This document shows positions 6,014-20,376 of a stretch of DNA of 64,000 nt, piece after piece. Every line of letters begins with the position of its first letter. Position 1 is the stretch's first letter. A model generated the notes under the pieces. That model searched no databases. It worked only from the letters and a program-made list of their open reading frames with translations, and had not been told where the DNA came from. The DNA is from Magnetococcales bacterium (GTDB taxonomy: Bacteria > Pseudomonadota > Magnetococcia > Magnetococcales > JADFYX01): contig JADFZS010000010.1 of the NCBI GenBank assembly GCA_015232405.1, positions 1,044 to 65,043 on the forward strand, written 5' to 3'. The translations under genes and the position numbers were made by a program.

Positions 6014-6529
6014 ATGGCTATACCATTTTCGGAAACTACCAGATCACTGAATGCTGATAAAAATACCTTCATTTCGTTGTGGTTGGTATTTTCAGCACTG
6101 ATCTTGTTTTTATGGGGAGCATGGTTTTTTGCAGGTAGCATTTATCATTATGTTGGTAGCCAACGAGTTACCATTACCAAAGAGCCGCACCCAACTTGGC
6201 GCTTGGATGATAACAAAGGCTTGGTGAAGCCCTATCATCGTTACCTGGTAGAAACCCAATTTGATAAGGAGGATCTGTCACTTATTCATCCTGGTCAACG
6301 CATATCCATTCACACAGATAATAGTTCCGCCACTTCCCAGAGTCCTTATAGCAGTCTAATCGAGAAAGTTGACCAAAAATCAGGCTTGGTACAGACTATA
6401 TTGGAGATACCTGCTGATAAACCACCTCAACTAACAGGTTTATCCACACGAGCTGAGGTAACTGTTTCTCAGCAAACTCCAGCCGCCTTTATGTTTCACA
6501 TAGTATCTCGGGAAAACAAGAACCCGTGA
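6014..6529 (+). CDS. Short HlyD-family periplasmic adaptor-like protein (lacks the coiled-coil hairpin)
   Basis: N-terminal single TM (FISLWLVFSALILFLWGAWFF) and a C-terminal barrel-sandwich-like segment (HPGQRISIHTD...). At 171 aa it is much shorter than typical HlyD. Its TGA overlaps the GTG of the next gene. Confidence 0.55.
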   Translation: MAIPFSETTRSLNADKNTFISLWLVFSALILFLWGAWFFAGSIYHYVGSQRVTITKEPHPTWRLDDNKGLVKPYHRYLVETQFDKEDLSLIHPGQRISIHTDNSSATSQSPYSSLIEKVDQKSGLVQTILEIPADKPPQLTGLSTRAEVTVSQQTPAAFMFHIVSRENKNP

Positions 6530-9249
6530 ATGCTTCCGAACGTCGTTTTTTCATCCCAGAAGTTATCCAAAGCTCCATGATGGACTGTGGCCCTGCGGCT
6601 CTCAAAGCCATGCTGAATGGTTTTGATATACCAGTTAACTATGGTCGATTGCGAGAGGCATGTCAGACTGATGTGGATGGCACCTCAATTGATACCATGG
6701 AAGATTTGGCAATACAGTTAGGTCTGGATGCAGAGCAACTAATTACTCCGGTTGATCATGTATTAATCCCTGAGGCTAAAACTCTACCAGCATTAATCGT
6801 TGTAAAACGCCCCAATGGATCAACTCATTTTATAATAATCTGGCGATTGTTTTTGGGATGGGCACAGATTATGGACCCCTCAACTGGACGCCACTGGGTT
6901 CGTACTGAAACCTTATCCGATCGGTTTTATCAACATAGCCAAGCTGTCAGTACCATTGATTGGCTGGAGTGGGCATCTTCAGAGATGTTTATCAATGTTT
7001 TACGGGCACGTTTGCTAAATGTTTGTATAGACCCGGATTGGGCAGAAGCCTGTTTAAAAAAGTGCACAAATAATGAGAGCTGGTATCCTCTGGCTAGTTT
7101 GGATGCCGCTACACGCATGGTTACCTCTCTTATCAATGCTAAAGGTATTAAGCCTGGAAAAGAGGCAGGGGAGCTTATCAACCGTTTTTTTCTCAATCCT
7201 GAGGAAATCCCCAAAGGTTATTGGTCCGTTCATGCCTTACCAGAAGATGAGGATACCCTCTTATTCAAAGGAGCCGTTATAATACACAGTACGGGCCTGG
7301 CCGAACCTGTTATTGCAGAAAGATACATTGAATCTATAGATAAACAGAATGCTGAAGAAGAAAAAGAAAAAACAGCCTCACCCTACTCACCTGAATTATC
7401 TGCAGCTATGAATGAAGAGGTTTCTCACCCAGAACGCCACATTTTATCAGCTATGCGAGAAGATGGCTTTTTTACCCCAACCATACTTATAATTTGTGCG
7501 ATATTGGCTGGTGTTGGAATTACTCTTGAAGTTCTTGTGTTACGTAATTTGATGGAGATCAATCAACAAACCCAACTCATGTCACAACAGTTGCAAACCT
7601 TTGGGCTGGTTATTCTATTTTTCATATCTTTATTGATACTTGAGTGGCCTTTAGCACTGCTATCCCGCCAAGCAGGTAAATATCTAGAAGTTCGCTTACG
7701 ATTGCGCTTTCTAAAAAAACTGCCACACCTCGAAGACCGTTATTTCCATAGCCGCTTAACTTCGGACATGATCCAGCGTGCTTACGATTTACGTGAAATA
7801 TCTAATCTTCCAAATTTGGGGGTCAATTTTTTACGTATACTGGCGCAAATTATCCTTATCACCATAGGGTTGACAGTGATCTACCCAGAAGGTACAGGCC
7901 GAGTTATTTTCAGTTGTGCAGTCGTTATTTTATTAGCTTTCTTGTCCCAACCATGGTTACAAGAAAAAGATATGCAGTTTCGGACACATGTGGGAAGCCT
8001 CAGTCGTTTTTATTTGGATGCATTACTGGGTATTGTTCCTATTCGGAGTCATGGTGCTACACAAGCAATTCAAACACAACATGAACGATTATTACTTGAT
8101 TGGTTCCGAACTGGACGAGATTTTTTTAGAACTTTTGAATACATCTCACTGTTAAATTTTTTAATCAGTACCGGACTGTCCATATGGCTAGTTCACTCTT
8201 ATTTAAATATTGATAGGGATAGCAGTGTAACTTTGGTATTGCTGTATTGGTTGCTCCAACTTCCACAACTGGGAAACCAGTTAGCTGAAAGCACCCAACA
8301 GTATCCAACATTGCGTAATCGTCTTTTGCGACTTCTAGAACCACTTTCTGCACCCGATGAAAGTCACTCTTGGTACTCCGCCGATCAGCACCGCCCAACC
8401 AATGTAGTATCTCCTGGAGAAAGTAAAGAAAAGAAACTTGGAGTTAGCATCAATTTTCACCAAGTTAACCTGATATTATCAGGCCGAGAGATTTTGCAAG
8501 ATCTGAATGTCAATTTGGCTTCTGGAGAACATGTAGCGATAGTGGGAAAATCAGGAGCTGGAAAATCCAGCTTAGTGGGATTGTTGTTAGGATGGCATCG
8601 ACCTGCTACTGGCGGTACTGTTTGGGTGGATGGTGAATTACTCCACGGATCACGCCTGGAACAGTTACGTCAAGAGTCCGTGTGGGTAGATCCTGAAGTA
8701 CAATTATGGAACCGATCGTTAGCGGACAATATTAACTATGGAAAAGAGAAAGGTAGCGACATCTCAGCCGAAATTTGGAGTCAGTCAGAACTTTTAGATA
8801 TGCTCCAATTCTTACCTGATGGTGATCAAACTATATTGGGTGAAAATGCAGGGCTACTTTCTGGTGGTGAGGGGCAACGGGTACGGTTGGGTCGTGGATT
8901 AAATAGGAACAACGCACGATTGGTTATCCTTGACGAACCATTTCGAGGCTTGACCCGCCACCAACGAAGCCAGTTATTAGGTAAAATTCGTCTCTTTTGG
9001 CAGAATGTTACTCTATTATTTATTAGCCATGATGTATCAGATACAAAAGGTTTTGATCGTACATGGGTAGTTCATGAAGGTCGTTTGGTTGAAGATGCAC
9101 CACCACATGAGTTAGCTGCTAATCCAAACTCTCATTATTCACAATTATTGGAAGCTGAACAAAGTCTACATAAATTAATTTGGAATCGTATTGACTGGAC
9201 AAAGTTATACCTGGAAAATGGTCAATTAACAGTTAGTTCAAAACGATAA
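6526..9249 (+). CDS. ABC exporter with N-terminal C39 cysteine peptidase domain (bacteriocin/peptide-processing type)
   Basis: C39 catalytic region MMDCGPAALKAML and GSTHFIIIW. Walker A GKSGAGKSSL, signature LSGGEGQRVRL and Walker B LVILDEPF. Six-TM region between residues ~310 and 600. Confidence 0.85.
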   Translation: MNASERRFFIPEVIQSSMMDCGPAALKAMLNGFDIPVNYGRLREACQTDVDGTSIDTMEDLAIQLGLDAEQLITPVDHVLIPEAKTLPALIVVKRPNGSTHFIIIWRLFLGWAQIMDPSTGRHWVRTETLSDRFYQHSQAVSTIDWLEWASSEMFINVLRARLLNVCIDPDWAEACLKKCTNNESWYPLASLDAATRMVTSLINAKGIKPGKEAGELINRFFLNPEEIPKGYWSVHALPEDEDTLLFKGAVIIHSTGLAEPVIAERYIESIDKQNAEEEKEKTASPYSPELSAAMNEEVSHPERHILSAMREDGFFTPTILIICAILAGVGITLEVLVLRNLMEINQQTQLMSQQLQTFGLVILFFISLLILEWPLALLSRQAGKYLEVRLRLRFLKKLPHLEDRYFHSRLTSDMIQRAYDLREISNLPNLGVNFLRILAQIILITIGLTVIYPEGTGRVIFSCAVVILLAFLSQPWLQEKDMQFRTHVGSLSRFYLDALLGIVPIRSHGATQAIQTQHERLLLDWFRTGRDFFRTFEYISLLNFLISTGLSIWLVHSYLNIDRDSSVTLVLLYWLLQLPQLGNQLAESTQQYPTLRNRLLRLLEPLSAPDESHSWYSADQHRPTNVVSPGESKEKKLGVSINFHQVNLILSGREILQDLNVNLASGEHVAIVGKSGAGKSSLVGLLLGWHRPATGGTVWVDGELLHGSRLEQLRQESVWVDPEVQLWNRSLADNINYGKEKGSDISAEIWSQSELLDMLQFLPDGDQTILGENAGLLSGGEGQRVRLGRGLNRNNARLVILDEPFRGLTRHQRSQLLGKIRLFWQNVTLLFISHDVSDTKGFDRTWVVHEGRLVEDAPPHELAANPNSHYSQLLEAEQSLHKLIWNRIDWTKLYLENGQLTVSSKR

Positions 9250-9341
9250 TTTTTTTTATATTATTAATAGCTATAAGGCGCTATCTTTTTTCTGCCTCTG
9301 TATATGAAAGATAATATTGCCCCATCAATTAGATTACCTCT

Positions 9342-11462
9342 ATGTCTGTAACTCAACTGACTTGGCCACACTCACGCCTACATGATGCTCTACCATTGTT
9401 AGCTAGACATGTTGGGTTTTCATCTGCTATCACCCCCCCTACTGCTTTATCTGAAGATGACCATTCTGCGGAAACCATCCACCATTGGTTAGAAAATACA
9501 GCTACTTGGATGGGTGTGGAATTTCTGGCAGTGGGAACAACATATCCAGAGTTAGAAACCATGTTGGCTCACGCTGGACCCGCAATAATTGAAATTCCAG
9601 TGAGAGAAGGTCGTGGTTTTCTTCTGCTTATTTCTGGAAATCGTCGCCGACTTACCCTGCTAGGAGAAGATGGCAAAAAACATAAGGTTCTACTTAAAGA
9701 AGTCCGAGAGCTCCTCACCAACCATCTGGAAGCTCCCCTCAGGCCAGCCATGGAAAAAATGGTTCAAGAGTTGGATATTCCTGAACATCGCCGAGAAAAA
9801 ATATTTCAATCACTGTTAAGTGAGCAACTTAGCAGTGTACATATTGGTCGCTCTTTTTGGCTGTTACGCTTATCACCAGCAGATGATTTTTGGAAACAAC
9901 TTCGTCATGCCGGATTTGTAAGAAAAGCAGCTGTTATTTTCACCAGCACGATAGCTTTTCAATTGCTCATATTATTATCCTGGGCAGTGATTGGTAAATC
10001 TATAATTTATAGCAATAGTTTTAGCGGTGCCACTGAAATATGGTCGCTACTATTATTGACAGCCATCCCCCTTCAAGTATTCAGCATTTATAAGAAAAAT
10101 CAGATTTCTCTAGATTTTGGTGCTCATCTACGCAATCGATTGTTAGATGGCATTCTCCAGCTCAAATCAGAAGAGGTTCGCCACCAGGGTAGTGGGCACT
10201 TTCTTGGCTACATAATGGACATTGAGATATTGGAGGGACAAAGCCTGACTATGGTGTTTGCCTCTCTCATCTCATTTATTCAAATCCTATCAGCCATTAT
10301 CATCCTGATGCTGGGGGCCGGGGGCTTGTTGCATGGAATGCTGTTATTGGGTTATTTTATCTTTCTTCTCTATATATCCTATAAGTTCTACCTTGGTTCC
10401 GGGCAACAATTGGCTCATTACCGTAAAATGAGCTGTGATCTGGCAGAACGCATGATTGGACATCGTACTCGACTTTCACAGGATAATCCAAAGTATCGCC
10501 ATACCGAAGAAGATGCTCTATTGGCTCGTTATATACCACTGAGCAAACGGCAAATGAAATTCATCGCCTTTATGGAAGGTGTCGGTCGACGTGGATGGCT
10601 TCTACTCTCTATAATAGCTCTTCTTCCAGAACTTACTTCGGCTCAACCTGATATTGGCTCGTTGGCCATAAGCTTAGGCGGCACTCTTTTGGCTGCCACT
10701 GCTCTCAACCAGTTTGTAATAAGCCTCCGTAATATTTTACGGGCATCACAAGCCTGGAAACAGCTGACCCCCTTATACCACAGCTCAACTAGACGACGAT
10801 ATCAAAAACCACCTCCTTTCATCCCTGACGCTCAAATTGATCACTTGGCAAAGTCAAACTCATTGATTCAAGGAGAAAAGCTAGAGTTTTCTTATTACAA
10901 TCGCACAATTTTAAACCGCTGTTCTCTAAAAGTTGAAAGAGGTCAACGTCTACTGTTGGAAGGTCCCTCTGGAGGTGGAAAATCTACTTTAGCCGCACTT
11001 TTAGCCGGTTTACGCCAGCCAAAAAATGGAACAGTGTCACTATTTGGCCTTAACTGGGAGCAATTGGGAGAAAAAGCCTGGAGACAACGGGTAGTGATCA
11101 CTCCTCAATTCCATGAAAACCATGTCATTACCGACACATTTGCCTTTAACCTGCTCATGGGTCGCCCCTGGCCACCATCAAGACAAGATTTGCTAGAAGC
11201 TAGAACTATTTGCCAGGAACTAGATTTAGGCGACCTCTTGGAAAAAATGCCTGCAGGAATGGAACAAATGGTTGGAGAGTCTGGCTGGAGACTCTCTCAT
11301 GGTGAACGTAGCCGTCTATATATTGCTAGAACCTTACTGCAAAAAGCTGATTTGATCATCCTTGATGAGAGTTTTGCTGCCCTTGATCCAAAAACCTTGA
11401 AAATTGCCCTCGATTGCGTTTTGCGTAGAAGTAAGACACTATTGCTCATCACACACCCATGA
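9342..11462 (+). CDS. ABC exporter, permease/ATPase fusion with Cys-less N-terminal (C39-like?) domain
   Basis: Walker A GPSGGGKSTL, signature variant LSHGERSRL and Walker B LIILDESFAALD. The ~170-aa N-terminal cytoplasmic domain has no catalytic Cys. Confidence 0.8.
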   Translation: MSVTQLTWPHSRLHDALPLLARHVGFSSAITPPTALSEDDHSAETIHHWLENTATWMGVEFLAVGTTYPELETMLAHAGPAIIEIPVREGRGFLLLISGNRRRLTLLGEDGKKHKVLLKEVRELLTNHLEAPLRPAMEKMVQELDIPEHRREKIFQSLLSEQLSSVHIGRSFWLLRLSPADDFWKQLRHAGFVRKAAVIFTSTIAFQLLILLSWAVIGKSIIYSNSFSGATEIWSLLLLTAIPLQVFSIYKKNQISLDFGAHLRNRLLDGILQLKSEEVRHQGSGHFLGYIMDIEILEGQSLTMVFASLISFIQILSAIIILMLGAGGLLHGMLLLGYFIFLLYISYKFYLGSGQQLAHYRKMSCDLAERMIGHRTRLSQDNPKYRHTEEDALLARYIPLSKRQMKFIAFMEGVGRRGWLLLSIIALLPELTSAQPDIGSLAISLGGTLLAATALNQFVISLRNILRASQAWKQLTPLYHSSTRRRYQKPPPFIPDAQIDHLAKSNSLIQGEKLEFSYYNRTILNRCSLKVERGQRLLLEGPSGGGKSTLAALLAGLRQPKNGTVSLFGLNWEQLGEKAWRQRVVITPQFHENHVITDTFAFNLLMGRPWPPSRQDLLEARTICQELDLGDLLEKMPAGMEQMVGESGWRLSHGERSRLYIARTLLQKADLIILDESFAALDPKTLKIALDCVLRRSKTLLLITHP

Positions 11463-11475
11463 GGAAAACCGATAA

Positions 11476-12417
11476 ATGAACAATATAAACAACTCTTCAT
11501 CAGGCCAAAACAGCACTATTCCTCAACCAAAACCCCATCGTGGTATATTAAAACGTATACGTGAAATGCTCTGGGATAAATTGCCCTATTTTATATTATT
11601 TGGCTTTCTTATCACTCTGACGACAATCTTCCTTTGGAATCGTATAGTTATCTTTGTCGAAGCCGGAGAAGGCGGTGTTCTTTACCGACCTCTATTGGGA
11701 GAGGGTGTCATAACCGACCGGGTTTATTCTGAAGGAATGTATATTCTCTTTCCTGTTAATACTCTGACACGTTACAACACAAGGGTGCAAATTCTCCGTA
11801 CTGAATTTGATGTTCTTACCAACCGCGGCCTCCCAGTCACATTGAAATTGGCTATACGTTACCGGCCTATTTTTGAGCTTCTAGGTGTACTCCATCAACG
11901 AGTAGGTCCCAACTACCCCAATAAAATTATTATTCCACAAATTGAATCTGTATTGCGTAAAGGATTGGGGAAACATTCACCAGAAGAAATATATACAAAC
12001 AAAGGTTTATTGCTAAGTAAGTTGATTGCGCAAGCTATTGAGGAGGTAGGACGAAAATATGTAATCGTTGACGACATAATTATTCGTAGCGTTAGCCTTC
12101 CTCATGAAGTTAAGAGAGCCATTGAAAAAAAACTAATTGAAGAACAACGTTTCCTCTCCTACACCTTCCGTTTACAGACAGAAATAAAAGAGGCTGAACG
12201 CAAACGTATTGAGTCAAAAGGAATCAGGGACTTTTCTGAAAATTTGAAAGCCAGTGTGACTGCCAATGTGTTGCGCTGGAAAGGAATTGATGCAACACTC
12301 AAACTAGCTTCATCACCAAATTCCAAAATAGTCATCATAGGTGGGCAAAAAGATGGTATGCCATTGATGCTCAATGCAGGTAATTGGTCTGATTTAACTC
12401 AAAAACCCCAACAATAA
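11476..12417 (+). CDS. SPFH/Band-7 (prohibitin/HflC-like) membrane protein
   Basis: N-terminal TM followed by an SPFH-like core (VEAGEGGVLYRP..., ...QIESVLRKGLG..., EAERKRIESKGI). It starts 13 bp after the ABC gene stop. Confidence 0.75.
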   Translation: MNNINNSSSGQNSTIPQPKPHRGILKRIREMLWDKLPYFILFGFLITLTTIFLWNRIVIFVEAGEGGVLYRPLLGEGVITDRVYSEGMYILFPVNTLTRYNTRVQILRTEFDVLTNRGLPVTLKLAIRYRPIFELLGVLHQRVGPNYPNKIIIPQIESVLRKGLGKHSPEEIYTNKGLLLSKLIAQAIEEVGRKYVIVDDIIIRSVSLPHEVKRAIEKKLIEEQRFLSYTFRLQTEIKEAERKRIESKGIRDFSENLKASVTANVLRWKGIDATLKLASSPNSKIVIIGGQKDGMPLMLNAGNWSDLTQKPQQ

Positions 12418-12962: not shown

Positions 12963-13076
12963 TCATACTTAACTATTAACAGTTATAGAGATAATGCCAT
13001 GAATGAGATCTCTGACCTAACTGTTAATGAAAAGAGACTTCTGATGGCAATGGTAGCGAGGTGGGATGATGAGTAA
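12963..13076 (+). pseudogene. 3' remnant of a RelE/HigB2-like (COG4737-type) toxin gene
   Basis: The frame reads SYLTINSYRDNAMNEISDLTVNEKRLLMAMVARWDDE*, resembling the C-terminal ...YLLxIYxKxxxxDLTxxEkxxL tail of these toxins. A stop codon lies immediately upstream (12960). It overlaps the antitoxin start by 11 nt, as in intact TA pairs. Confidence 0.4.
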
Positions 13077-13389
13077 AAAACGCAATTTGTTTGATGAACT
13101 GAGTCAGTCTATTGATGAAGCACAACAGTTCGATTCTGGCAAAATCACTCTTAAGACAACTAAAGTCGAAGCACAACCACCATTGCATATTGATGCTAAG
13201 ACTGTTCTGGAAACCAGAGAGTCTCTCCATTTATCCAGAGGGGTTTTTGCTCGTTGGTTAAGGGTCTCTCCCAGAACATTGGAAAACTGGGAACAAGGAA
13301 GATCTAGACCCAATTCTCAAGCTGCAGCTTTGATCCTTATGATACGTAAATTTCCTGATACCGTAGATCGGTTAGCTGTTTTATCATAG
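13066..13389 (+). CDS. HTH (XRE-type) antitoxin-like regulator, COG2944/HigA2/NadS-like
   Basis: The C-terminal HTH LSRGVFARWLRVSPRTLENWEQGRSRPNSQAAALI contains the WEQGRxxP signature of this family. Size is 107 aa. Confidence 0.75.
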   Translation: MMSKKRNLFDELSQSIDEAQQFDSGKITLKTTKVEAQPPLHIDAKTVLETRESLHLSRGVFARWLRVSPRTLENWEQGRSRPNSQAAALILMIRKFPDTVDRLAVLS

Positions 13390-13644
13390 TTTCATACTTA
13401 GTTGGTTGCTCTACATAAACTTTCAAGCATTTACATCATGTTAGAAAAATCTCTATTTTTTTAGATATCTTCACATTTCTCATACTTTTCTATTTTCGAT
13501 ACCTACACGACACAACTAGAATTATTTAAATTGGTCTAGTATCATGAAAAAGTTGTATTAGCTTTCTTGTGGTTCCAGCAAACCCCAAGACATGCTTGCT
13601 AATATTTCTACCATATAAGCATGTAAAACCAACCAAGGAGCCTC

Positions 13645-14973
13645 ATGAATTCAACAGTCAAAGGTAACAAGCTCGAAAATGAAATATTTAATCTATTTTC
13701 TAAAATGATCTTGGAAAATAGATTTTTATGGCTAAAAAGTGAATGCTGTCAGATTCGAAGAAAACATGGGTACTATTCAAAAGATAGAGAAAAAAATATC
13801 ATATTCGATATTTCAGTTGAGATAACCCTACCAGGACAAGACAAATATTCACAACTAATCCTAATTGAGTGTAAAAATTACGAGCGCAAAGTTGAGTTTA
13901 GCGACGTACAAAACTTCCATTCAGTAACTCAGCAAGTTGCTTCATCAAACTCAAAATCAATTATCGTTTCAACTAATGCTTTTAATGATGGAGCTTTTAA
14001 ATTTGCAAAATCAAAAGGAATAGGGTTACTTCGCTACTTTTACTCTGATGAGCTACAATGGGTACTTGCTCGATCACCTTCTAGTATGAATCCATTGCTT
14101 TCATTTGATACTGACTATTTAAATTCTTCCTCCCATGTAATGTGCCAACAAGATATTAAAAGCAAATACTTTGATTGCCACGGATACTCATACGGTAAAT
14201 ATACAACATCATTGAACGAATTTCTGTATCGATTAGTAAATGTAGGAGCAAGTGAGAACTTTAAAAAACATTTTACCAATGTCGAAGATAAATTAAAGTC
14301 AAAGACTCGGTTAGTGCCATTCATAGCAAACAAAAAAATTGAGGCAATAAGTCAAAAAATTTTACAAAATGTCAGTTATACTAAAGGCCCTACCCCACTG
14401 GATAAAATTTGCAAAAAATTATCCGAAGATACTGGTCTAGAATTGCTACAAAACACAACCCTTGCTAAAGGCGCATTAGGGAGCATCTCGTTTGATCCAA
14501 TTGTAATCAAGTTAGCTGAGGCCCATGCAGAGGATGAGTATAGGGCGAGGTTTACTTTAGCTCATGAAATTGGTCATTTAATTCTAGAACATGGTAAGTA
14601 CATGAAAAAAGAACTGTGTCATGAATCAGATTTGGACATAGAAAATCCACGATTGATCGGAATTCAAGATATTGAACGGATGGAATGGCAAGCAAACTAT
14701 TTTGCTTCGTACCTCCTTCTACCTGAAAAACAGTTGAAGGAGTCATTTTATTTATTGGTTAAAAAGTATTCCTTGATTAATCGTGGACATGGTGTGCTTT
14801 ACGTTGACAATCAAAAATGCAACAAGGACACATATTATGGCATTACAAATCGATTAAAAAAAGAGTTTAAAACTTCTCGTAGTGCATTTCAGATACGTCT
14901 CAGGAATCTTGGGCTTCTTACCGATTTTGCGTCAATGAACTACAAACTCTCAGGACACTCATTTAATTCTTGA
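13645..14973 (+). CDS. Fusion protein: N-terminal PD-(D/E)xK (Mrr-like) nuclease domain and C-terminal ImmA/IrrE (M78) zinc metallopeptidase domain
   Basis: N-terminal D...ExK pattern (IFDISVE...LILIECKNY). C-terminal HExxH (LAHEIGHLILEH) followed by WQANYFASYLLLP, typical of ImmA/IrrE. Strong SD AAGGAG. AT-rich codon usage. Confidence 0.7.
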   Translation: MNSTVKGNKLENEIFNLFSKMILENRFLWLKSECCQIRRKHGYYSKDREKNIIFDISVEITLPGQDKYSQLILIECKNYERKVEFSDVQNFHSVTQQVASSNSKSIIVSTNAFNDGAFKFAKSKGIGLLRYFYSDELQWVLARSPSSMNPLLSFDTDYLNSSSHVMCQQDIKSKYFDCHGYSYGKYTTSLNEFLYRLVNVGASENFKKHFTNVEDKLKSKTRLVPFIANKKIEAISQKILQNVSYTKGPTPLDKICKKLSEDTGLELLQNTTLAKGALGSISFDPIVIKLAEAHAEDEYRARFTLAHEIGHLILEHGKYMKKELCHESDLDIENPRLIGIQDIERMEWQANYFASYLLLPEKQLKESFYLLVKKYSLINRGHGVLYVDNQKCNKDTYYGITNRLKKEFKTSRSAFQIRLRNLGLLTDFASMNYKLSGHSFNS

Positions 14974-15507: not shown

Positions 15508-15951
15508 ATGTCACTGAAATGGCATGACAAGATAATGATGGCTATCGGTTGTGAAAAACCAAACCACCCCACAGAGACTACCAGGAAGGATGACTCCTCT
15601 TCAACCACATCAAGCCCTAATTTGCACGATGCTGCCCCCATTTTACGTGATTCTGCTCTTAAAATACGCAAAGCTAGCCTCAATTTACTCAAGACCCCTC
15701 GTTCTCCACAAAAAGAGACTCCCACCTTAGTGGATTATTATAGGGAGATCGCTCGGAGCAGGCTCAAATTACAAATGCTTGGAGAAGAGGCCAGAATAAA
15801 CAACCTTCGACTGTGTGCCGCATATCAAGGTCTAATGAAAAGCATTGATAGATTCAAAAAGTTACAAAGAAAACCACAAAACAAGGTTACCACTATCTCT
15901 CTACCCCTTTCCCAACACAATATCCATAACATTGGGCATAGGCAGATCTAA
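15508..15951 (+). CDS. Hypothetical protein (no recognisable domain)
   Basis: Only evidence is an ORF of 147 aa in an otherwise ORF-poor region. The N-terminal half is low-complexity Ser/Thr/Pro-rich and the C-terminal half is predicted helical. Confidence 0.3.
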   Translation: MSLKWHDKIMMAIGCEKPNHPTETTRKDDSSSTTSSPNLHDAAPILRDSALKIRKASLNLLKTPRSPQKETPTLVDYYREIARSRLKLQMLGEEARINNLRLCAAYQGLMKSIDRFKKLQRKPQNKVTTISLPLSQHNIHNIGHRQI

Positions 15952-15984: not shown

Positions 15985-16599
15985 TTACTTCTCAAGAAAA
16001 CCCAGACGAACCCCCAAACTGACAAATGCTCCTGCGGTTATGCGGTTGAACCAGATCATCCATGTTGAACGGTCATCAAGTTGATTGCGAACTGTTGCAG
16101 CAAAAAAACCATATAGCACAAAAACCACCAATGTCATGACCATAAATACCGCCCCCATACCCACCATCTGCAAGAAAACATCCCCTTGATCAGGAACAAT
16201 GAACTGGGGAAGAAAGGCTAGGAAGAACAACGATAATTTAGGGTTTAAAATGTTAATCAGAAACCCACGAATAGCGATTTTAAAATAGGAATGGCTCTTA
16301 AGATATTGTTGCTGGGCTTGAGGTTGTGCGCCTTCTTTGAGTGTCATCCAAGCCAAATAGAGAAGATAGAGCACTCCAACCCATTTGAACCATTGAAAAA
16401 TAATGGCACTGGTGTGTAACAGCGCTGCCAAGCCAAAAATTGTAGCTAGCAAATGGGGTAGAATCCCCAAAGTACAACCGACGGAAGCAGCCCAGCTAGC
16501 GCGATGGCTATGGGTTAAAGCTGTGGAGATGGTATATAGAACACCAGTTCCAGGAGCCAGAACTACAATAAAAGCGGTTATAAGAAATTCACTGTTCAT
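15985..16599 (-). CDS. LysE/RhtB family amino-acid efflux translocator
   Basis: About 200 aa with six hydrophobic segments. The N-terminal FIVVLAPGTGVLYTIS resembles the family PGP motif region. Confidence 0.75.
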   Translation of the reverse strand: MNSEFLITAFIVVLAPGTGVLYTISTALTHSHRASWAASVGCTLGILPHLLATIFGLAALLHTSAIIFQWFKWVGVLYLLYLAWMTLKEGAQPQAQQQYLKSHSYFKIAIRGFLINILNPKLSLFFLAFLPQFIVPDQGDVFLQMVGMGAVFMVMTLVVFVLYGFFAATVRNQLDDRSTWMIWFNRITAGAFVSLGVRLGFLEK

Positions 16600-16759
16600 C
16601 TTTTATGATAATTTAATACCCTCTTTTTTTAATACAGAAGAAATTATCTTTGCTTCTGGCAGCAAGATAATATAATTGCTACACGAAATATCATACCGGG
16701 CATTGTCAATCTTCCGAACACACTGATCATAGACTTTCAACCTAGATTCGGCAGGAAAT

Positions 16760-17437
16760 TCAACCGTTCTTTCGCCAATATTTTTTTAATTTGACTCTCT
16801 CTAATGAAAAATATTTTATCCTATCTTCACTATCAATTGTCTTGCCTCGATATTTTTTAATCATTTTCCAAAAACCGAGGCTTGGGATTTTATATTGATC
16901 AACCTTCTTTACTACTATACAGGTCAAAAATGGGCGTTTTTTAAGATAATCTTCCTCATCCAATACATCAAAAACATATTTGAGTTCGTGATTGCTCCAA
17001 TTGTTTTTGGTAACAGGGGAAAGTTTCATTGTTGATGCTAATTTATTGTAGTTTACTGTTCCGCCTTTTATAGCAACTTTTTTTAATTCACGAGCTACCC
17101 GTTCTTTAAGTTTAGTTCTGTTTTTTCTATTTTTTCCAAAAAGTTTACCAAACCTTTTTTTAAACTCTTTCTTGCGTTTATCTATCTTTTCCTGTTTGCT
17201 GTCACGGTCTGATTTCCTTCCAGAATTTAAACCTTCACAAACATAAGAGGCATGGGAATCCCACCCAAGGGGCCAGCTTTTAAAGACATATTCATAACAA
17301 CATGGGCATAGAACTTTTTTTGATGTGATACTATCACGGTCAAGATCTGCTGCATTCACTATAACATTGTTATAGACCTTGTCTTTTTTTACTCCTCGAC
17401 TAGTTACTTCGTTTCTTAATTTCGGTTTTATTGGCAT
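16760..17437 (-). CDS. Hypothetical lysine-rich protein with N-terminal Cys cluster (CPCC...H...C)
   Basis: ORF of 225 aa, strongly AT-rich. A putative zinc-ribbon-like VLCPCCYEYVFKSWPLGWDSHASYVCEG is followed by a highly basic linker and a C-terminal globular part. No family recognised. Confidence 0.45.
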   Translation of the reverse strand: MPIKPKLRNEVTSRGVKKDKVYNNVIVNAADLDRDSITSKKVLCPCCYEYVFKSWPLGWDSHASYVCEGLNSGRKSDRDSKQEKIDKRKKEFKKRFGKLFGKNRKNRTKLKERVARELKKVAIKGGTVNYNKLASTMKLSPVTKNNWSNHELKYVFDVLDEEDYLKKRPFLTCIVVKKVDQYKIPSLGFWKMIKKYRGKTIDSEDRIKYFSLERVKLKKYWRKNG

Positions 17438-17673
17438 GGTAATGATAATCCACTGTTTTGCTAGAAATATAAAAATTTATAATCCGTTTTTAATTGATGA
17501 TCGTATTTTATCATATCCTGTATTTAGGACTATGTCATTGATCAGCTATATAGCTTTTGGTCGGGGGAGTAGTAGATACTGGATGGTCAACATTTTTCAA
17601 CCATTAGTCAGACATGATTTTATTATCGAACGAAATACCACCCTAAATTGCCTAGACATTGTACCATTTGATT

Positions 17674-20376
17674 TCAATCTGAGGATAATTGGGATTGCAG
17701 GCCAAGGCGCACTTCAACCATTTCGTAATCACCTTCAAGGCTTTTTATCTTAAAGCCCAGTTTTTCTACTAAAGCAAGCATGTCGTCATTGCTGCTCAGA
17801 ACCAAACCAAATATGGTCTTGGTGTGCCGACTATGGCAGTAGTTGATCATTTTATTCATAAGTAGACTACCCAAACCCTGCCCCTGGAGATCAGAACGGA
17901 TCAGGATGGAGTACTCTGCCTCCTCGTTATCTGCTGTGGTTGCGGTGTTGACCACCCCCAAACACTCCGGTTCACCTTGGGGTCCAAGAGTCATGGCCAT
18001 GAAAGCCATCTCCCGGTCATAATCAATATGTATAAGCTGAGCCAGTAGTTCAGGGGTAAGATTTGTCATCTCACCACAAAAGCGTAGCTGTCTGTCCCTT
18101 GAAGATGTCCGCAGGATTAGCTGTTTGTATGCCACTTCATCTTCTGGCAAAACTGGTCGCACCAATACGTTACGTCCATCTCTAAGTATGATATTTTCCT
18201 CCAACTCTCTAGGATACGGCCGGATTGCTAGACATGTTGTATTATCCGCCACATCAGAGAGGGCGATGCGAGCATCAATCACCAGACAGTCGTCAGGGCC
18301 AGCAAGAATGGGGTTCATATCCAGCACCTGTATTTGTGGGTAATCTATGACCAGTTCTGATATCCGCACCAGGAGTTGCTGGATTCGACCGGAATTGGCC
18401 AGTTTGCGGCCATCTTGTGTGTCTAAGATGGTTCCAATACTAGTACGGGTGATCAACTCCTTAGCCAATGACATATTTAGGGGTGGCAAGGTGACGGCGC
18501 GATCCTTACGAATATGGGTTCTCGCGCCACCAGGACCAAAACGAATCAGTTTTCCAAAAAGGCTATCATTTGCTATCCCTGCCATAATGACAAGATTGTT
18601 TGGTCTTCTGACCATCTCCTGAACAACAAAACCGGGGAAAGCCTCTCCTGGGTTATGTTCTTGAAACTCTTCCAACATCCTTTGACCCAAATTGGTCGCC
18701 TCCTCCTTGCAGGATACATCTGTAACCATATGACCAGTAAAATATTTAGCAATAATACTCTTGGAGCAAGGTCGCAAAGATACTGGGTATCCCACCTGGG
18801 CAGCAGCATTAACTACATCTTCAAGGGTATTTGCAATGCGGGTTTTTGGTGATTGAATCTCATAGCTCTCTAACAACTTGGCTGTCTGTTCCTCATCCAT
18901 GAAATAACAGCCCTCTGACATTATTTTTTCTATCTCTTTTATATTCTCTTCACGTTGGGCAGGACTGATCCTGGAGGTATAAACCGGGCTTTGCAGCATC
19001 ATATCCTGGTTTCTTTGGAAAGAGGCCAGATAGTGGAACCCCCTCGCCGCTTTATCCGGTGTTGAAAAAAGTGAAACATGGGCTTGAATGAAGATTTTAC
19101 GAAGATGATCCAGGCGGTCTAATGGCATACCAAGCCAACAGGCCATGACATTGCGCATGGATTTTTTGCACAGTTCAGTCACCACCTCCGCCACCTTGTC
19201 CCCAGGGGCCATAGGGGTTGGTGCGTGCATGACCAGGATGCCATGAATCCCCTTTGCTTTCAATAATATATCCATCACTGCGCGATACCTACTTGCATCT
19301 GCGTCACGACCGATATCCAGAGGAATTCGTGGTGGTCCTGATCCGGCATAGACAGCGGATAACGCCTTGGAAGTCTCTTGATCGAACATATGGAGCTGAC
19401 TGCCTCCAGCAACCAGTATATCTACAGCCACCTCTGCCGGACCACTTCCATTGCACAATACCACCAGGGAGTTACCTAAAAATGGGCGACTGTTGGCTAG
19501 TGTTTCAACAGCATCAAACAGTTCATCGGTATGGGTTACCCGCAGCATGCCAGCTCTACGTACGGCAGCATCAAAAACTTCGTCGGAATACTCCTGGCTG
19601 TTTTCGTCTGCATTGACGATTATTGTTCCATCATTACGGCGGTTTGCCTTAATGGTGATAACAGGCTTTATTCGGGATATTGCCCGTGCAGCAGAGAGAA
19701 AGCGACGGCTATCATGTATGGATCGAATGTAGAGCAGCACCGCCTGCACATTGGGTTCCAAGGCCAGAGAGTCGAGGATATCGGCTAGATCAACATCCAC
19801 CGAGTCACCAACAGAGATAACATGGGAAAATCCAACCCCTTTTGCTGTGGCCCATTCCAAAACACCAGCTACCAGACTTCCCGACTGGGAAACTATGGCT
19901 AACTTCCCTTTTTGGGCTGTAGTATGAATCCAACTGGCATTCAAGCCAATACCTGGAACCTGAATACCAGTGGAGCCAGAACCAAGCAGTCTAACACCGG
20001 ATATTCTAGCCACTTTGCTGATCTCTTCGGTGAATGAGGTTTTTTCTCCAACCTCTGAACTATCAGGATCTACGGTCATCACCACTGCCATACGATTTCC
20101 AATACTTCCCAACTGCTCGATCAACGGAGCAATGGTTGGTGGCGGAGTGCAGAGTATCGCCAGATCTGGTGAAATCGGCAGTGTTTCAACTGAGGGATAA
20201 CATAAGACGCGCAGTACCGACTCATATCTGGGATTGACAGGCATCACAGGACCGTGAAAGTCACTGAGCAACAGGTTGCGCATCACCATGGCTCCGAGAC
20301 TGTCTGGACGGTTAGATGCACCAATAATGGCAATAGAACGTGGTTTAAATAGTTTTTCCAGATTGGATAAACTCAT
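17674..20376 (-). CDS. Pat/YfiQ-like protein lysine acetyltransferase (ADP-forming acyl-CoA synthetase-like domains plus C-terminal GNAT)
   Basis: N-terminal CoA-binding SIAIIGASNRPDSLG, a central ATP-grasp-like region and a C-terminal GNAT with LQGQGLGSLLMNKM. Length is 900 aa. Confidence 0.8.
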   Translation of the reverse strand: MSLSNLEKLFKPRSIAIIGASNRPDSLGAMVMRNLLLSDFHGPVMPVNPRYESVLRVLCYPSVETLPISPDLAILCTPPPTIAPLIEQLGSIGNRMAVVMTVDPDSSEVGEKTSFTEEISKVARISGVRLLGSGSTGIQVPGIGLNASWIHTTAQKGKLAIVSQSGSLVAGVLEWATAKGVGFSHVISVGDSVDVDLADILDSLALEPNVQAVLLYIRSIHDSRRFLSAARAISRIKPVITIKANRRNDGTIIVNADENSQEYSDEVFDAAVRRAGMLRVTHTDELFDAVETLANSRPFLGNSLVVLCNGSGPAEVAVDILVAGGSQLHMFDQETSKALSAVYAGSGPPRIPLDIGRDADASRYRAVMDILLKAKGIHGILVMHAPTPMAPGDKVAEVVTELCKKSMRNVMACWLGMPLDRLDHLRKIFIQAHVSLFSTPDKAARGFHYLASFQRNQDMMLQSPVYTSRISPAQREENIKEIEKIMSEGCYFMDEEQTAKLLESYEIQSPKTRIANTLEDVVNAAAQVGYPVSLRPCSKSIIAKYFTGHMVTDVSCKEEATNLGQRMLEEFQEHNPGEAFPGFVVQEMVRRPNNLVIMAGIANDSLFGKLIRFGPGGARTHIRKDRAVTLPPLNMSLAKELITRTSIGTILDTQDGRKLANSGRIQQLLVRISELVIDYPQIQVLDMNPILAGPDDCLVIDARIALSDVADNTTCLAIRPYPRELEENIILRDGRNVLVRPVLPEDEVAYKQLILRTSSRDRQLRFCGEMTNLTPELLAQLIHIDYDREMAFMAMTLGPQGEPECLGVVNTATTADNEEAEYSILIRSDLQGQGLGSLLMNKMINYCHSRHTKTIFGLVLSSNDDMLALVEKLGFKIKSLEGDYEMVEVRLGLQSQLSSD

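What the first reader, a model, noticed from the sequence alone, without database searches (positions are those of the whole stretch)
13645..14973. PD-(D/E)xK nuclease fused to an ImmA/IrrE metallopeptidase in an AT-rich islet: candidate defence or abortive-infection effector
The N-terminal ~150 aa carry a restriction-endonuclease-like D...ExK core (IFDISVE / LILIECKNY). The C-terminal ~150 aa carry HEIGHLILEH plus the WQANYFASYLL segment of ImmA/IrrE (M78) peptidases. ImmA/IrrE proteases classically act by cleaving a cognate XRE-type repressor in response to a signal, and an XRE-type gene sits 255 bp upstream. Coupling a signal-activated protease module to a nuclease in one polypeptide, with AT-rich composition, a TA remnant and repeats as neighbours, is what one expects of an uncharacterised phage-defence or mobile-element control gene. 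I do not recognise this exact fusion as a named defence system.
Basis: partly seen in the sequence, partly recalled or inferred. Interest (0 to 1): 0.65.

Follow-up and report, generated by a model that had tools for sequence, protein, structure and literature searches.

The report
Stand-alone nuclease fused to switchable peptidase
This gene encodes one protein joining a DNA-cutting restriction-type nuclease to a latent zinc protease of the kind bacteria use to sense DNA damage or phage attack; it belongs to a rare, widely scattered, unstudied family that works without a partner gene and is a plausible, untested, single-gene defence or toxin module.

Summary
ORF 13645-14973 (442 aa) carries an N-terminal Mrr_cat PD-(D/E)xK nuclease and a C-terminal ImmA/IrrE (M78) peptidase, both above Pfam thresholds and both supported by an AlphaFold model (pLDDT 86).

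The fusion is a conserved family. In 191 full-length members from more than ten phyla, D55/E75/K77 and H307/H316/E347 are 100% conserved and E308/H311 are each in 190/191. The peptidase is closest to CapP, with a cysteine-bearing loop (C325, 77% of members) where CapP has its autoinhibitory cysteine switch. There is no GAF domain.

The proposed XRE partner is not supported. An HTH neighbour occurs in 2 of 75 upstream genes. The window's HTH belongs to a RelE-associated antitoxin family and occurs without this gene in the nearest relatives.

The family is a solo, patchily distributed accessory gene: 156 hits in 185,579 species genomes, variable flanks, about 8% defence-type neighbours, and a prophage accessory slot in one case.

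The best reading is a fused toxin-regulator module in which the latent peptidase gates the nuclease. The defence role, the trigger and the peptidase substrate are all inferred. No paper describing this fusion was found. I rate it a new variant of a known kind, of moderate interest.

The parts
13635..13640 (+). Shine-Dalgarno sequence AAGGAG, 4 nt before the ATG
   Evidence: Read directly from the sequence.
13645..14973 (+). Whole ORF, 442 aa: Mrr_cat nuclease, linker/mid-domain, CapP/IrrE-type M78 peptidase
   Evidence: AF2 model: pLDDT 86.3, pTM 0.82.
13645..14037 (+). PD-(D/E)xK (Mrr_cat) nuclease domain, aa 1-131, with alpha-beta-beta-beta-alpha-beta core
   Evidence: Pfam PF04471, 34.8 bits. 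Foldseek matches to AF1548 1y88, Can2 8bao, MspJI 4f0p and Card1 6xl1. Secondary structure.
13801..13821 (+). IFDISVE: catalytic D55 (191/191) and E59 (190/191)
   Evidence: coordinates.
13855..13881 (+). LILIECKNY: catalytic E75-x-K77 (both 191/191)
   Evidence: coordinates.
14038..14325 (+). Family-specific linker and small alpha/beta mid-domain, aa 132-227, with no match to any library
   Evidence: Not covered by the Pfam or PADLOC hits. AF2 confidence is low at 141-160 and high at 161-210.
14059..14082 (+). Linker motif WVLARSPS (W139 187/191, R143 189/191, S144-P145-S146 about 86%), in a low-confidence loop
   Evidence: The motif co-varies with the switch cysteine.
14326..14934 (+). CapP/IrrE-type zinc metallopeptidase domain plus short helical tail, aa 228-430; no GAF domain
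   Evidence: Pfam PF06114, 53.9 bits. PADLOC capP 9e-20, aa 230-368 on profile positions 3-122 of 242. Foldseek CapP 7t5t 4.9e-7 and PprI 8sln 4.2e-5. Profile against PDB: CapP 1.8e-9.
14542..14550 (+). R300-A-R302. R300 lies 7 residues before the first zinc histidine, the position of the ssDNA-contacting R90 of E. coli CapP
   Evidence: R300 169/191; R302 is R or K in 186/191. CapP R90/H97 from PMC13228613. The equivalence is inferred from sequence register only.
14563..14592 (+). HEIGHLILEH: zinc site H307-E308-x-x-H311 plus invariant H316
   Evidence: H307 and H316 191/191; E308 and H311 190/191.
14602..14637 (+). Putative cysteine-switch loop MKKELCHESDLD: beta-strand 320-326 bearing C325, followed by acidic residues
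   Evidence: AF2 strand 320-326. C325 148/191, D329 137/191. The loop aligns with the CapP loop ESFQCSDAD with a 2-residue offset of the Cys. CapP switch described.
14680..14709 (+). MEWQANYFAS: third zinc ligand E347 (191/191), Q349 and A350 (191/191)
   Evidence: Aligns with the E129 helix of CapP.

Best explanation
The gene encodes a member of a conserved but undescribed family of about 440-aa single-chain proteins. Each has an N-terminal Mrr-type PD-(D/E)xK DNA nuclease, a family-specific linker/mid-domain of about 95 aa, and a C-terminal CapP/IrrE-type zinc peptidase. That peptidase carries a CapP-like cysteine-switch loop but has no GAF domain and no partner repressor.

The gene is a stand-alone, horizontally moving accessory gene. 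I read it as a fused effector-regulator module, a single-polypeptide counterpart of the ImmA-protease systems RosmerTA, PD-lambda-2 and CapH/CapP. In that model the nuclease is the toxic effector and the latent peptidase is the switch. A cue such as single-stranded DNA, DNA damage or a phage product displaces the cysteine from the zinc. The active peptidase then cuts a substrate, most economically its own conserved linker or another copy of the protein. That licenses the nuclease to degrade DNA and stop phage replication or cell growth.

Shown: domain identities, conservation of both catalytic sites, absence of a conserved partner, patchy distribution. Inferred: the defence role, the direction of control, the trigger and self-cleavage.
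For: Both domains exceed Pfam cutoffs and match solved nuclease and CapP/IrrE folds in a confident model.

In 191 full-length members with 28-54% identity to the window protein, D55, E75, K77, H307, H316 and E347 are 100% conserved, and E308 and H311 are each in 190/191. Both enzymatic activities are therefore needed.

The loop between HExxH and E347 forms a beta-strand bearing C325 (77% of members) followed by acidic residues. This matches CapP's autoinhibitory cysteine switch in position.

No neighbour family is shared by more than 6 of 80 loci. HTH neighbours occur in 2/75.

The distribution is sparse and phylum-hopping: 156 hits in 185,579 species genomes, with the best hit to the Magnetococcales copy only 54% identical, in Nitrosomonas and Methylobacter. 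The gene is 34% GC against 42-48% in its flanks. Synteny with Magnetococcales HHB-1 breaks where the islet starts.

Contexts include a prophage integrase-to-cI accessory slot (L088), IS66 and other transposases, a TA-rich island and an nSTAND/HEPN-MNT neighbourhood. About 8% of nearest neighbours hit defence models: DRT, HamB, MADS, PD-Lambda-3, DrmC.

Two long variants place the module behind a NACHT-like NTPase.

The linker motif S144-P145-S146 and D177 co-vary with C325 (144/4/16/27, Fisher p 1e-17). The top MI pairs link residues 138 and 144-146 to 273, 291, 325 and 326.

Precedents: the ImmA protease is a hub antitoxin domain paired with many toxins, including nucleases (PMC10440598). The Xre-peptidase PD-lambda-2B and a single-gene defence protein with an N-terminal Mrr nuclease were validated experimentally (PMC9519451).
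Against: There are no experimental data for any family member, and no paper describes the fusion.

Most neighbours are ordinary housekeeping genes. Defence-neighbour enrichment is modest and was not tested against a background.

The family is nearly absent from plasmid and phage collections: 2 full-length plasmid-collection records, one of them a 4.09-Mb record that looks chromosomal, and 3-4 IMG/VR contigs.

All characterised ImmA/IrrE/CapP enzymes cleave a separate HTH repressor, not themselves.

The cysteine is offset by 2 residues from CapP's in the profile alignment and is absent in 23% of members.

The covariation is confounded by shared ancestry: the members lacking both Cys and SPS form the divergent subfamily. 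I had no model coordinates, so I could not check whether the linker lies near the active site.

The window copy carries three substitutions at columns that are at least 98% conserved in the nuclease domain (E89Q, K94V, Q114N), so this particular copy may be attenuated.
Confidence: 0.45

Rival explanations
1. One reading: a CapP/ImmA-like protease whose cognate substrate is the XRE-type protein encoded 255 bp upstream (13066-13389). Cleavage of that repressor would control the locus.
For: All characterised family members cleave an adjacent HTH repressor. An HTH gene lies upstream on the same strand. One relative has a capH-like upstream neighbour.
Against: An HTH neighbour occurs in only 2/75 loci. 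The window's HTH protein is of NadS/MqsA antitoxin type with a C-terminal HTH and has no capH match. Its family pairs with a RelE toxin and occurs without the Mrr-M78 gene in the closest Magnetococcales genomes. A probable toxin remnant precedes it.
Confidence: 0.05
2. A direct restriction-type nuclease (solitary type IV or Mrr-like enzyme) that attacks foreign DNA without killing the host. The peptidase domain would serve another purpose, such as degrading a phage protein or anti-restriction factor, or acting as a DNA-binding/regulatory scaffold.
For: Mrr_cat domain with an intact D...ExK. Fold similarity to the catalytic domains of the modification-dependent enzymes MspJI and AspBHI. Solo-gene status fits type IV enzymes.
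Against: No recognisable DNA-modification reader or Mrr_N domain is present. The peptidase catalytic residues are essentially invariant, so it is not a mere scaffold. The cysteine-switch loop implies a latent, signal-gated enzyme rather than a constitutive one.
Confidence: 0.15
3. A DNA-damage or stress-response regulator like IrrE. The peptidase would cleave an unlinked chromosomal repressor when ssDNA accumulates, and the nuclease domain would act as the DNA sensor, replacing the HTH/GAF module, or as a repair nuclease.
For: The closest structural relatives are the ssDNA-activated CapP and PprI/IrrE. R300 is conserved at the position of CapP's ssDNA-contact R90. Many loci are surrounded by housekeeping genes. 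IrrE and its substrate DdrO are unlinked genes in Deinococcus (my own knowledge, not checked here).
Against: The family occurs in roughly 0.1% of species, scattered over more than 10 phyla, with a different context in every genus. About 10% of copies are truncated. Some copies sit in prophage or IS contexts. The nuclease catalytic triad is 100% conserved, so it is more than a binding domain.
Confidence: 0.15
4. A selfish, addiction-type fused toxin-antitoxin with no defence role. The peptidase domain would continually neutralise or turn over the nuclease, and the gene would persist because its loss is harmful.
For: The ImmA protease acts as an antitoxin domain in NetFlax/RosmerTA. The gene sits beside TA genes in L112 and beside a TA remnant in the window. 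Truncated peptidase-only remnants exist.
Against: Post-segregational killing is hard to achieve when toxin and antitoxin are one polypeptide made in equal amounts. The family is rare on plasmids. TA function and defence function are not mutually exclusive.
Confidence: 0.1

Closest known systems
CapP of the CapH/CapP regulator of CBASS and other immune operons (PDB 7t5t)
   Same: Best sequence and fold match for the C-terminal half (PADLOC capP 9e-20; Foldseek 4.9e-7; profile 1.8e-9). Shared features: HExxH plus a downstream Glu; a Cys-bearing strand between them followed by acidic residues (cysteine-switch position); and an Arg 7 residues before the first His.
   Different: No GAF domain: the capP profile is matched only over positions 3-122 of 242, and only about 95 residues follow E347. 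There is no CapH partner and no downstream immune operon. A nuclease is fused N-terminally. The Cys is offset by 2 residues in the alignment.
RosmerTA (RmrT toxin with RmrA, an HTH plus ImmA-type Zn-peptidase antitoxin)
   Same: The peptidase half hits twelve PADLOC RmrA models, best E 4.9e-13. It shares the logic of a toxic effector controlled by an ImmA-type peptidase module with a validated anti-phage role.
   Different: RosmerTA has two genes and an N-terminal HTH on RmrA. Here there is one gene and no HTH, and the toxin-like nuclease occupies the N-terminal position in the same chain.
PD-lambda-2 of E. coli (HigB-like toxin, HigA-like Xre fused to an ImmA/IrrE peptidase, and a third gene)
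   Same: An ImmA/IrrE peptidase fused to another domain within an experimentally validated defence system. The fusion protein alone is toxic.
   Different: PD-lambda-2 has three genes, and its fusion partner is an HTH rather than a nuclease.
IrrE/PprI-DdrO of Deinococcus and ImmA-ImmR of ICEBs1
   Same: Same peptidase family (Pfam PF06114; Foldseek 8sln and 3dti). Both are signal-activated cleavage switches.
   Different: Those enzymes cleave a separate HTH repressor and carry no nuclease. IrrE has HTH and GAF domains and no cysteine switch.
Mrr / type IV restriction enzymes and single-gene defence proteins with an N-terminal Mrr-family nuclease plus a C-terminal sensor (Vassallo et al. 2022); nuclease domains of Can2 and Card1
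   Same: Mrr_cat fold with D...ExK. The layout of nuclease effector followed by a second regulatory or sensor domain has experimental precedent.
   Different: No Mrr_N winged helix, beta-propeller or CARF domain is present. The second domain is a catalytically intact metallopeptidase.

Membership tests
Peptidase_M78 / ImmA-IrrE (COG2856) metallopeptidases | HExxH zinc motif plus a downstream Glu ligand on the (E)xxAN helix; score above the Pfam gathering threshold | tested here: met
   PF06114 53.9 bits against cutoff 22. H307, E308, H311 and E347 are 99.5-100% conserved in 191 members.
Peptidase_M78 / ImmA-IrrE (COG2856) metallopeptidases | Fold similar to solved IrrE/CapP structures | tested here: met
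   Foldseek: 7t5t 4.9e-7, 8sln 4.2e-5, 3dti 9.1e-5, each over about 200 aligned columns.
Peptidase_M78 / ImmA-IrrE (COG2856) metallopeptidases | Proteolytic activity on a defined substrate | not testable with these tools
   This needs biochemistry. No substrate is identified.
CapH/CapP immune-operon regulator | Adjacent CapH-type HTH repressor gene | tested here: not met
   A capH model hit occurs in 1 of 75 upstream neighbours, and any HTH in 2 of 75. The window's HTH gene does not match capH.
CapH/CapP immune-operon regulator | Peptidase, central HTH and C-terminal GAF architecture that binds ssDNA | tested here: not met
   The capP profile is matched only over positions 3-122 of 242. The protein ends about 95 residues after E347, and a nuclease lies N-terminal instead.
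CapH/CapP immune-operon regulator | Internal cysteine-switch loop (present in about a third of CapP proteins) | tested here: inconclusive
   A Cys-bearing strand is found at the equivalent place and C325 is present in 148/191 members. However, there is a 2-residue offset in the alignment, and no coordinates were available to check zinc coordination.
RosmerTA | Two-gene operon: RmrT toxin plus RmrA (HTH with Zn-peptidase) | tested here: not met
   It is a single gene with no conserved neighbour and no HTH in the protein. The RmrA models match the peptidase region only.
Mrr_cat / PD-(D/E)xK restriction-endonuclease-like nucleases | D...(D/E)xK catalytic motif on the alpha-beta-beta-beta-alpha-beta core; score above the Pfam threshold | tested here: met
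   PF04471 34.8 bits against cutoff 21. D55, E75 and K77 are in 191/191 members. Secondary structure is in the expected order. Fold matches: 1y88, 8bao, 4f0p.
Mrr-type (type IV) restriction enzyme | N-terminal Mrr_N or other DNA-modification reader domain preceding a C-terminal Mrr_cat | tested here: not met
   No reader domain was detected, and Mrr_cat is at the extreme N-terminus.
Mrr-type (type IV) restriction enzyme | Cleavage of modified DNA | not testable with these tools
   This needs biochemistry.
Known anti-phage defence systems (PADLOC-DB v2.0.0) | Full-length match to a system protein model | tested here: not met
   Only domain-level hits were found, to capP, RmrA and PDC-M69B, all on aa 204-427. 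Nothing matches the nuclease half. Later database versions were not available.

The most novel reading that the evidence does not exclude
A self-contained 'protease-gated nuclease' immune protein. A CapP-type cysteine-switch peptidase, deprived of its GAF domain and its repressor substrate, senses an infection or DNA-damage cue. It does so possibly through DNA bound by the fused nuclease/mid-domain. It then cleaves its own invariant linker (W139-x-L-x-R143-S-P-S) in cis or trans to unleash the Mrr-type nuclease. That would be a new single-polypeptide abortive-infection mechanism built on zymogen-like autoprocessing. The NACHT-fused variants would make the same module part of NLR-like proteins.
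Probability: 0.2. Interest if true: 0.75.

Novelty: new variant of a known kind. Interest (0 to 1): 0.55.

Why it matters
ImmA/IrrE/CapP peptidases are known only as switches that cut a separate repressor. This family keeps the latent, probably signal-gated peptidase but has lost both the repressor and the GAF sensor, and it is welded to a catalytically intact nuclease. If the peptidase controls the nuclease, this would be a compact one-gene sensor-effector. It would extend the RosmerTA/CapP logic to a fused form and give a tractable system for asking what these peptidases sense and how a cysteine switch is opened. It would also add a family to defence-system catalogues that currently annotate it only as 'ImmA/IrrE family metallo-endopeptidase'. 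If instead it turns out to be an IrrE-like damage regulator with an unlinked substrate, it would show that the nuclease fold can replace the HTH/GAF DNA sensor.

Tried and rejected
- **Conserved partner gene.** All-against-all BLAST of ORFs within 3.5 kb in 80 loci found no cluster in more than 6 loci, and those clusters were generic ABC and LysR families. Pfam and PADLOC scans of the nearest upstream and downstream ORFs found no recurrent family. The partner idea was rejected.
- **Domain swapping.** A phmmer search of the peptidase half against 1.84 billion representatives suggested other length classes. Most proved to be N-terminally truncated gene calls of the same family. Only the two NACHT-like proteins are genuinely different.
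- **Phage carriage.** The two 'Acinetobacter phage MD-2021a' hits are chromosomal contigs carrying nrdAB, metE and LysR regulators. PHROGs and BFVD match single domains only.
- **Mobile-element boundaries in the window.** There is no tRNA in 64 kb. Repeats are only short A/T-rich chance matches.
- **Transcription signals.** 12 promoter-like sites were found against 10.2 expected, and no terminator, so the scan is uninformative.
- **Literature.** Eight searches found no description of an Mrr_cat-M78 fusion.
- **Toxin remnant.** The best alignment is only 7/13 identities at E 0.15, so it stays suggestive.
Full report
**1. Observation.**

The ORF at 13645-14973 (+) is real. It is 442 aa long, starts with ATG, and has an AAGGAG Shine-Dalgarno sequence 4 nt upstream.

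Pfam places Mrr_cat (PF04471) on aa 55-129 at 34.8 bits against a cutoff of 21. It places Peptidase_M78 (PF06114) on aa 296-419 at 53.9 bits against a cutoff of 22. PADLOC matches the C-terminal half to capP (9e-20) and to twelve RmrA models, and finds nothing for the N-terminal half. NCBIfam has no model for the protein beyond a far sub-threshold hit to the spr1629 repressor/antitoxin family.

The gene is 34.2% GC. It lies in a 35.6% GC stretch (about 12.1-15.3 kb) between genes of 42-48% GC. An HTH gene (13066-13389) ends 255 bp upstream.

**2. The fusion is a conserved family.**

A search of 5.8 billion proteins found 345 homologues. All of the best 120 are 415-467 aa long and cover at least 89% of the query. 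The identical sequence is annotated 'ImmA/IrrE family metallo-endopeptidase [Magnetococcales bacterium]'. The next best hits are only 54% identical, from Nitrosomonas, Methylobacter and Methylomonas.

A scan of one genome per species found 156 relatives in 185,579 genomes. They come from Gamma- and Betaproteobacteria, Acidobacteriota, Bacteroidota, Nitrospirota, anammox Planctomycetota, Chloroflexia, Patescibacteria, Sorangium, Leptospiraceae and Verrucomicrobiales. An exhaustive phmmer search with the peptidase half found 126 cluster representatives at E<=1e-30.

I aligned 191 full-length members that are 28-54% identical to the window protein.
- D55, E75 and K77 are 100% conserved, as are Y43, S45 and R48 in the preceding hairpin.
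- H307, H316, E347, Q349 and A350 are 100% conserved, and E308 and H311 are each present in 190/191.

Both active sites are therefore under strong purifying selection.

**3. Structure.**

AlphaFold2 with a 120-sequence alignment gave mean pLDDT 86.3 and pTM 0.82. Foldseek against the PDB matched the C-terminal ~200 residues to CapP (7t5t, 4.9e-7), PprI/IrrE (8sln, 3dti) and an M. tuberculosis XRE-peptidase regulator (6cz6). It matched the N-terminal ~115 residues to PD-(D/E)xK nucleases: AF1548 1y88, Can2 8bao, MspJI 4f0p and Card1 6xl1. A family profile against PDB sequences finds only CapP (1.8e-9).

Residues 132-227 match nothing. They hold a low-confidence loop with the near-invariant motif W139-x-L141-x-R143-S-P-S, followed by a confidently folded small alpha/beta unit.

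**4. A CapP-like switch without CapP's partners.**

CapP has zinc ligands H96/H100/E129 (Thauera numbering). A cysteine on a beta-strand inserted between them caps the zinc. ssDNA bound between the peptidase and GAF domains displaces this 'cysteine switch', and the enzyme then cleaves CapH between F82 and R83.

In the window protein the segment between HExxH and E347 forms a strand (320-326) carrying C325, followed by acidic residues (MKKELCHESDLD). C325 is present in 148/191 members and D329 in 137/191. The profile alignment puts this loop on CapP's ESFQCSDAD, with the D-x-D in register and the Cys two residues earlier. R300 (169/191) lies seven residues before the first His, the position of CapP's ssDNA-contacting R90.

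The protein has no room for a GAF domain. The capP model is matched only over positions 3-122 of 242, and only about 95 residues follow E347.

I treat 'cysteine switch' as a well-founded inference, not a demonstrated fact.

**5. No conserved partner; the XRE gene is a bystander.**

- Clustering all ORFs within 3.5 kb in 80 loci gave no family in more than 6 loci, and those were generic ABC and LysR proteins.
- Pfam scans of the nearest upstream and downstream ORFs found HTH_31 in 2/75 upstream, one being the window, and no HTH downstream. Everything else was a singleton.
- The window's HTH protein is of NadS/MqsA antitoxin type with a C-terminal HTH, and it does not hit capH.
- Its own family is large, and members are 60-85% identical to it.
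- In a Chromatiaceae genome the homologue follows a RelE (PF06296) toxin gene with a 4-bp overlap.
- In the two closest Magnetococcales genomes (85% identity) it is followed by Omp85/TamB, with no Mrr-M78 gene.
- In the window, a 25-codon ORF overlapping its start aligns 7/13 with the toxin's C-terminus at the right place (E 0.15, suggestive only).

The HTH gene is therefore best read as an orphan antitoxin that shares an islet with the fusion gene by chance.

**6. Genomic ecology.**

Flanks differ in every genus and are often housekeeping genes. Several contexts are typical of accessory or conflict genes:
- transposases;
- an nSTAND NTPase and HEPN/MNT;
- a caspase-Sel1 protein;
- a TA-rich island with a second Mrr_cat nuclease;
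- a prophage, where the gene sits between the integrase and the S24 CI-like repressor (L088).

About 8% of the nearest neighbours hit defence models, each in a single locus: Drt4/6, HamB, mad2/mad3, PD-Lambda-3_A, DrmC and PDC candidates. I did not compute a background rate.

The family is almost absent from plasmid and phage collections. The two 'phage' records are really chromosomal contigs. About 10% of genomic copies are truncated, and a Rhizobium plasmid has a peptidase-only remnant beside a transposase.

In Magnetococcales HHB-1 the upstream genes (C39-ABC, ABC, Band_7) are syntenic with the window, but synteny ends where the AT-rich islet begins.

Together these results show a sporadic, horizontally acquired solo gene, not a housekeeping function.

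**7. How it probably works.**

The ImmA-protease domain is a hub regulatory or 'antitoxin' domain. It is paired with many toxins, including nucleases, in RosmerTA-type defence systems. An Xre-ImmA/IrrE fusion is part of the validated PD-lambda-2 system. Single-gene defence proteins with an N-terminal Mrr nuclease and a C-terminal sensor also exist.

The most economical reading is that this family fuses effector and regulator. The nuclease is the toxic output and the latent peptidase is the gate.

Two observations hint that the linker talks to the peptidase active site.
- The S144-P145-S146 motif and D177 are lost together with C325: the counts are 144, 4, 16 and 27, Fisher p 1e-17.
- The strongest inter-domain MI pairs join residues 138 and 144-146 to 273, 291, 325 and 326.

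This is confounded by phylogeny, because the members lacking both form the divergent subfamily. I could not check it on coordinates.

Known cleavage sites have a hydrophobic P1 and an Arg at P1'. CapH is cut at F82|R83. The DdrO L|R site is from my memory and was not checked here. The family has two conserved x|R candidates, L129|R130 and residue 142|R143. Self-cleavage there is a speculation to be tested, not a result.

I give the effector-regulator model 0.45. The specific autoprocessing version gets about 0.2.

**8. Rivals.**

- The XRE-substrate model is largely excluded (0.05).
- A direct, non-suicidal restriction enzyme with an accessory protease (0.15) is not excluded.
- An IrrE-like damage regulator with an unlinked substrate (0.15) is not excluded.
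- A purely selfish fused TA (0.1) is less likely, because toxin and antitoxin in a single chain cannot have differential stability.

**9. Novelty.**

Eight full-text literature searches found no description of this architecture. The curated libraries hold only the separate domains. Both domains and the general logic are known, while the architecture, the loss of the repressor and GAF domain, and the solo status are new. I rate it a new variant of a known kind, with moderate interest (0.55).

One caveat applies to the window copy. It differs from the family at three columns that are at least 98% conserved in the nuclease domain (E89Q, K94V, Q114N), which places it among the ~5% most deviant members. 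A more typical homologue should be tested alongside it.

Noticed in passing
window 12999-13389: The HTH gene 13066-13389 looks like an orphan antitoxin. Its family follows a RelE (PF06296) toxin with a 4-bp overlap in a relative (L107). In the window only a 25-codon ORF (MNEISDLTVNEKRLLMAMVARWDDE) remains, overlapping its start; it aligns 7/13 to the toxin's C-terminus (E 0.15). The HTH protein also matches phrog_2104 full length (E 2.5e-24).
   Followed up: yes
window 13909-13986 (aa 89, 94, 114 of the ORF): The window copy differs from the family at three columns that are at least 98% conserved in the nuclease domain (E89Q, K94V, Q114N). That is 3 deviations in 47 conserved columns, rank 183 of 191, although the D-ExK triad is intact. 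This may reflect relaxed or altered nuclease function in this copy.
   Followed up: partly
P0200 (661 aa) and P0226 (806 aa): Two long relatives place a NACHT-like NTPase region (Pfam 27-30 bits) in front of an Mrr_cat-like domain plus the same peptidase half. In them the ExK motif is degenerate (IIVKCFD / IIVKYFE). P0234 is the same subtype without the NACHT region.
   Followed up: partly
family alignment (191 sequences); loci such as L040, L046, L049, L066-L069, L075-L084: The family splits into two subfamilies. One has the switch cysteine, the R-SPS linker motif and D177, and includes the window copy. The other is more divergent (Pseudomonas, Bacteroidota, Acidobacteriota) and lacks all three.
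   Followed up: partly
L089 1654-2769, L090 7627-8784, L113 5780-6895: A DUF3800 (PF12686) gene lies directly next to the family gene in three unrelated loci: two proviral contigs and a Nitrospirota MAG. It is not a general partner but recurs more than any other neighbour.
   Followed up: no
L085 (CAKLQH020000007.1, 'Acinetobacter phage MD-2021a'): This record in the phage collection is evidently an Acinetobacter chromosomal contig (nrdAB, metE, LysR/TetR/AraC regulators). A 4.09-Mb A. baumannii record in the plasmid collection also looks chromosomal. A. baumannii therefore carries a full-length family member (29% identity) in a housekeeping context.
   Followed up: partly
window 16500-17700 (ORF 16760-17437, minus strand): This is a second AT-rich patch (33-34% GC), separated from the first by a LysE gene of normal GC. 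It holds a 225-aa lysine-rich ORF with a CxxC...C pattern and no significant hit in Pfam, NCBIfam, PADLOC or PHROGs. ORF 15508-15951 (147 aa) is likewise without hits.
   Followed up: partly
window 6526-12417 versus L114: The C39-peptidase ABC transporter, second ABC protein and SPFH/Band_7 genes are syntenic with Magnetococcales bacterium HHB-1 (Band_7 75% identical). Synteny ends right after Band_7, where the AT-rich islet starts in the window.
   Followed up: partly
L055, L057, L063, L065, L070, L071, L073, L079; L086 4977-5720: About 10% of genomic copies are truncated ORFs (242-360 aa); some lie at contig ends and others are probably pseudogenes. Rhizobium plasmid pRgalR602b has a 247-aa peptidase-only remnant beside a transposase.
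   Followed up: partly
L110 versus L111: The same family gene (P0002) with the same downstream genes (ProQ, ankyrin) has an IS66 element upstream in one metagenome contig and a pyrophosphatase gene in another. This is local insertion polymorphism next to the gene.
   Followed up: no
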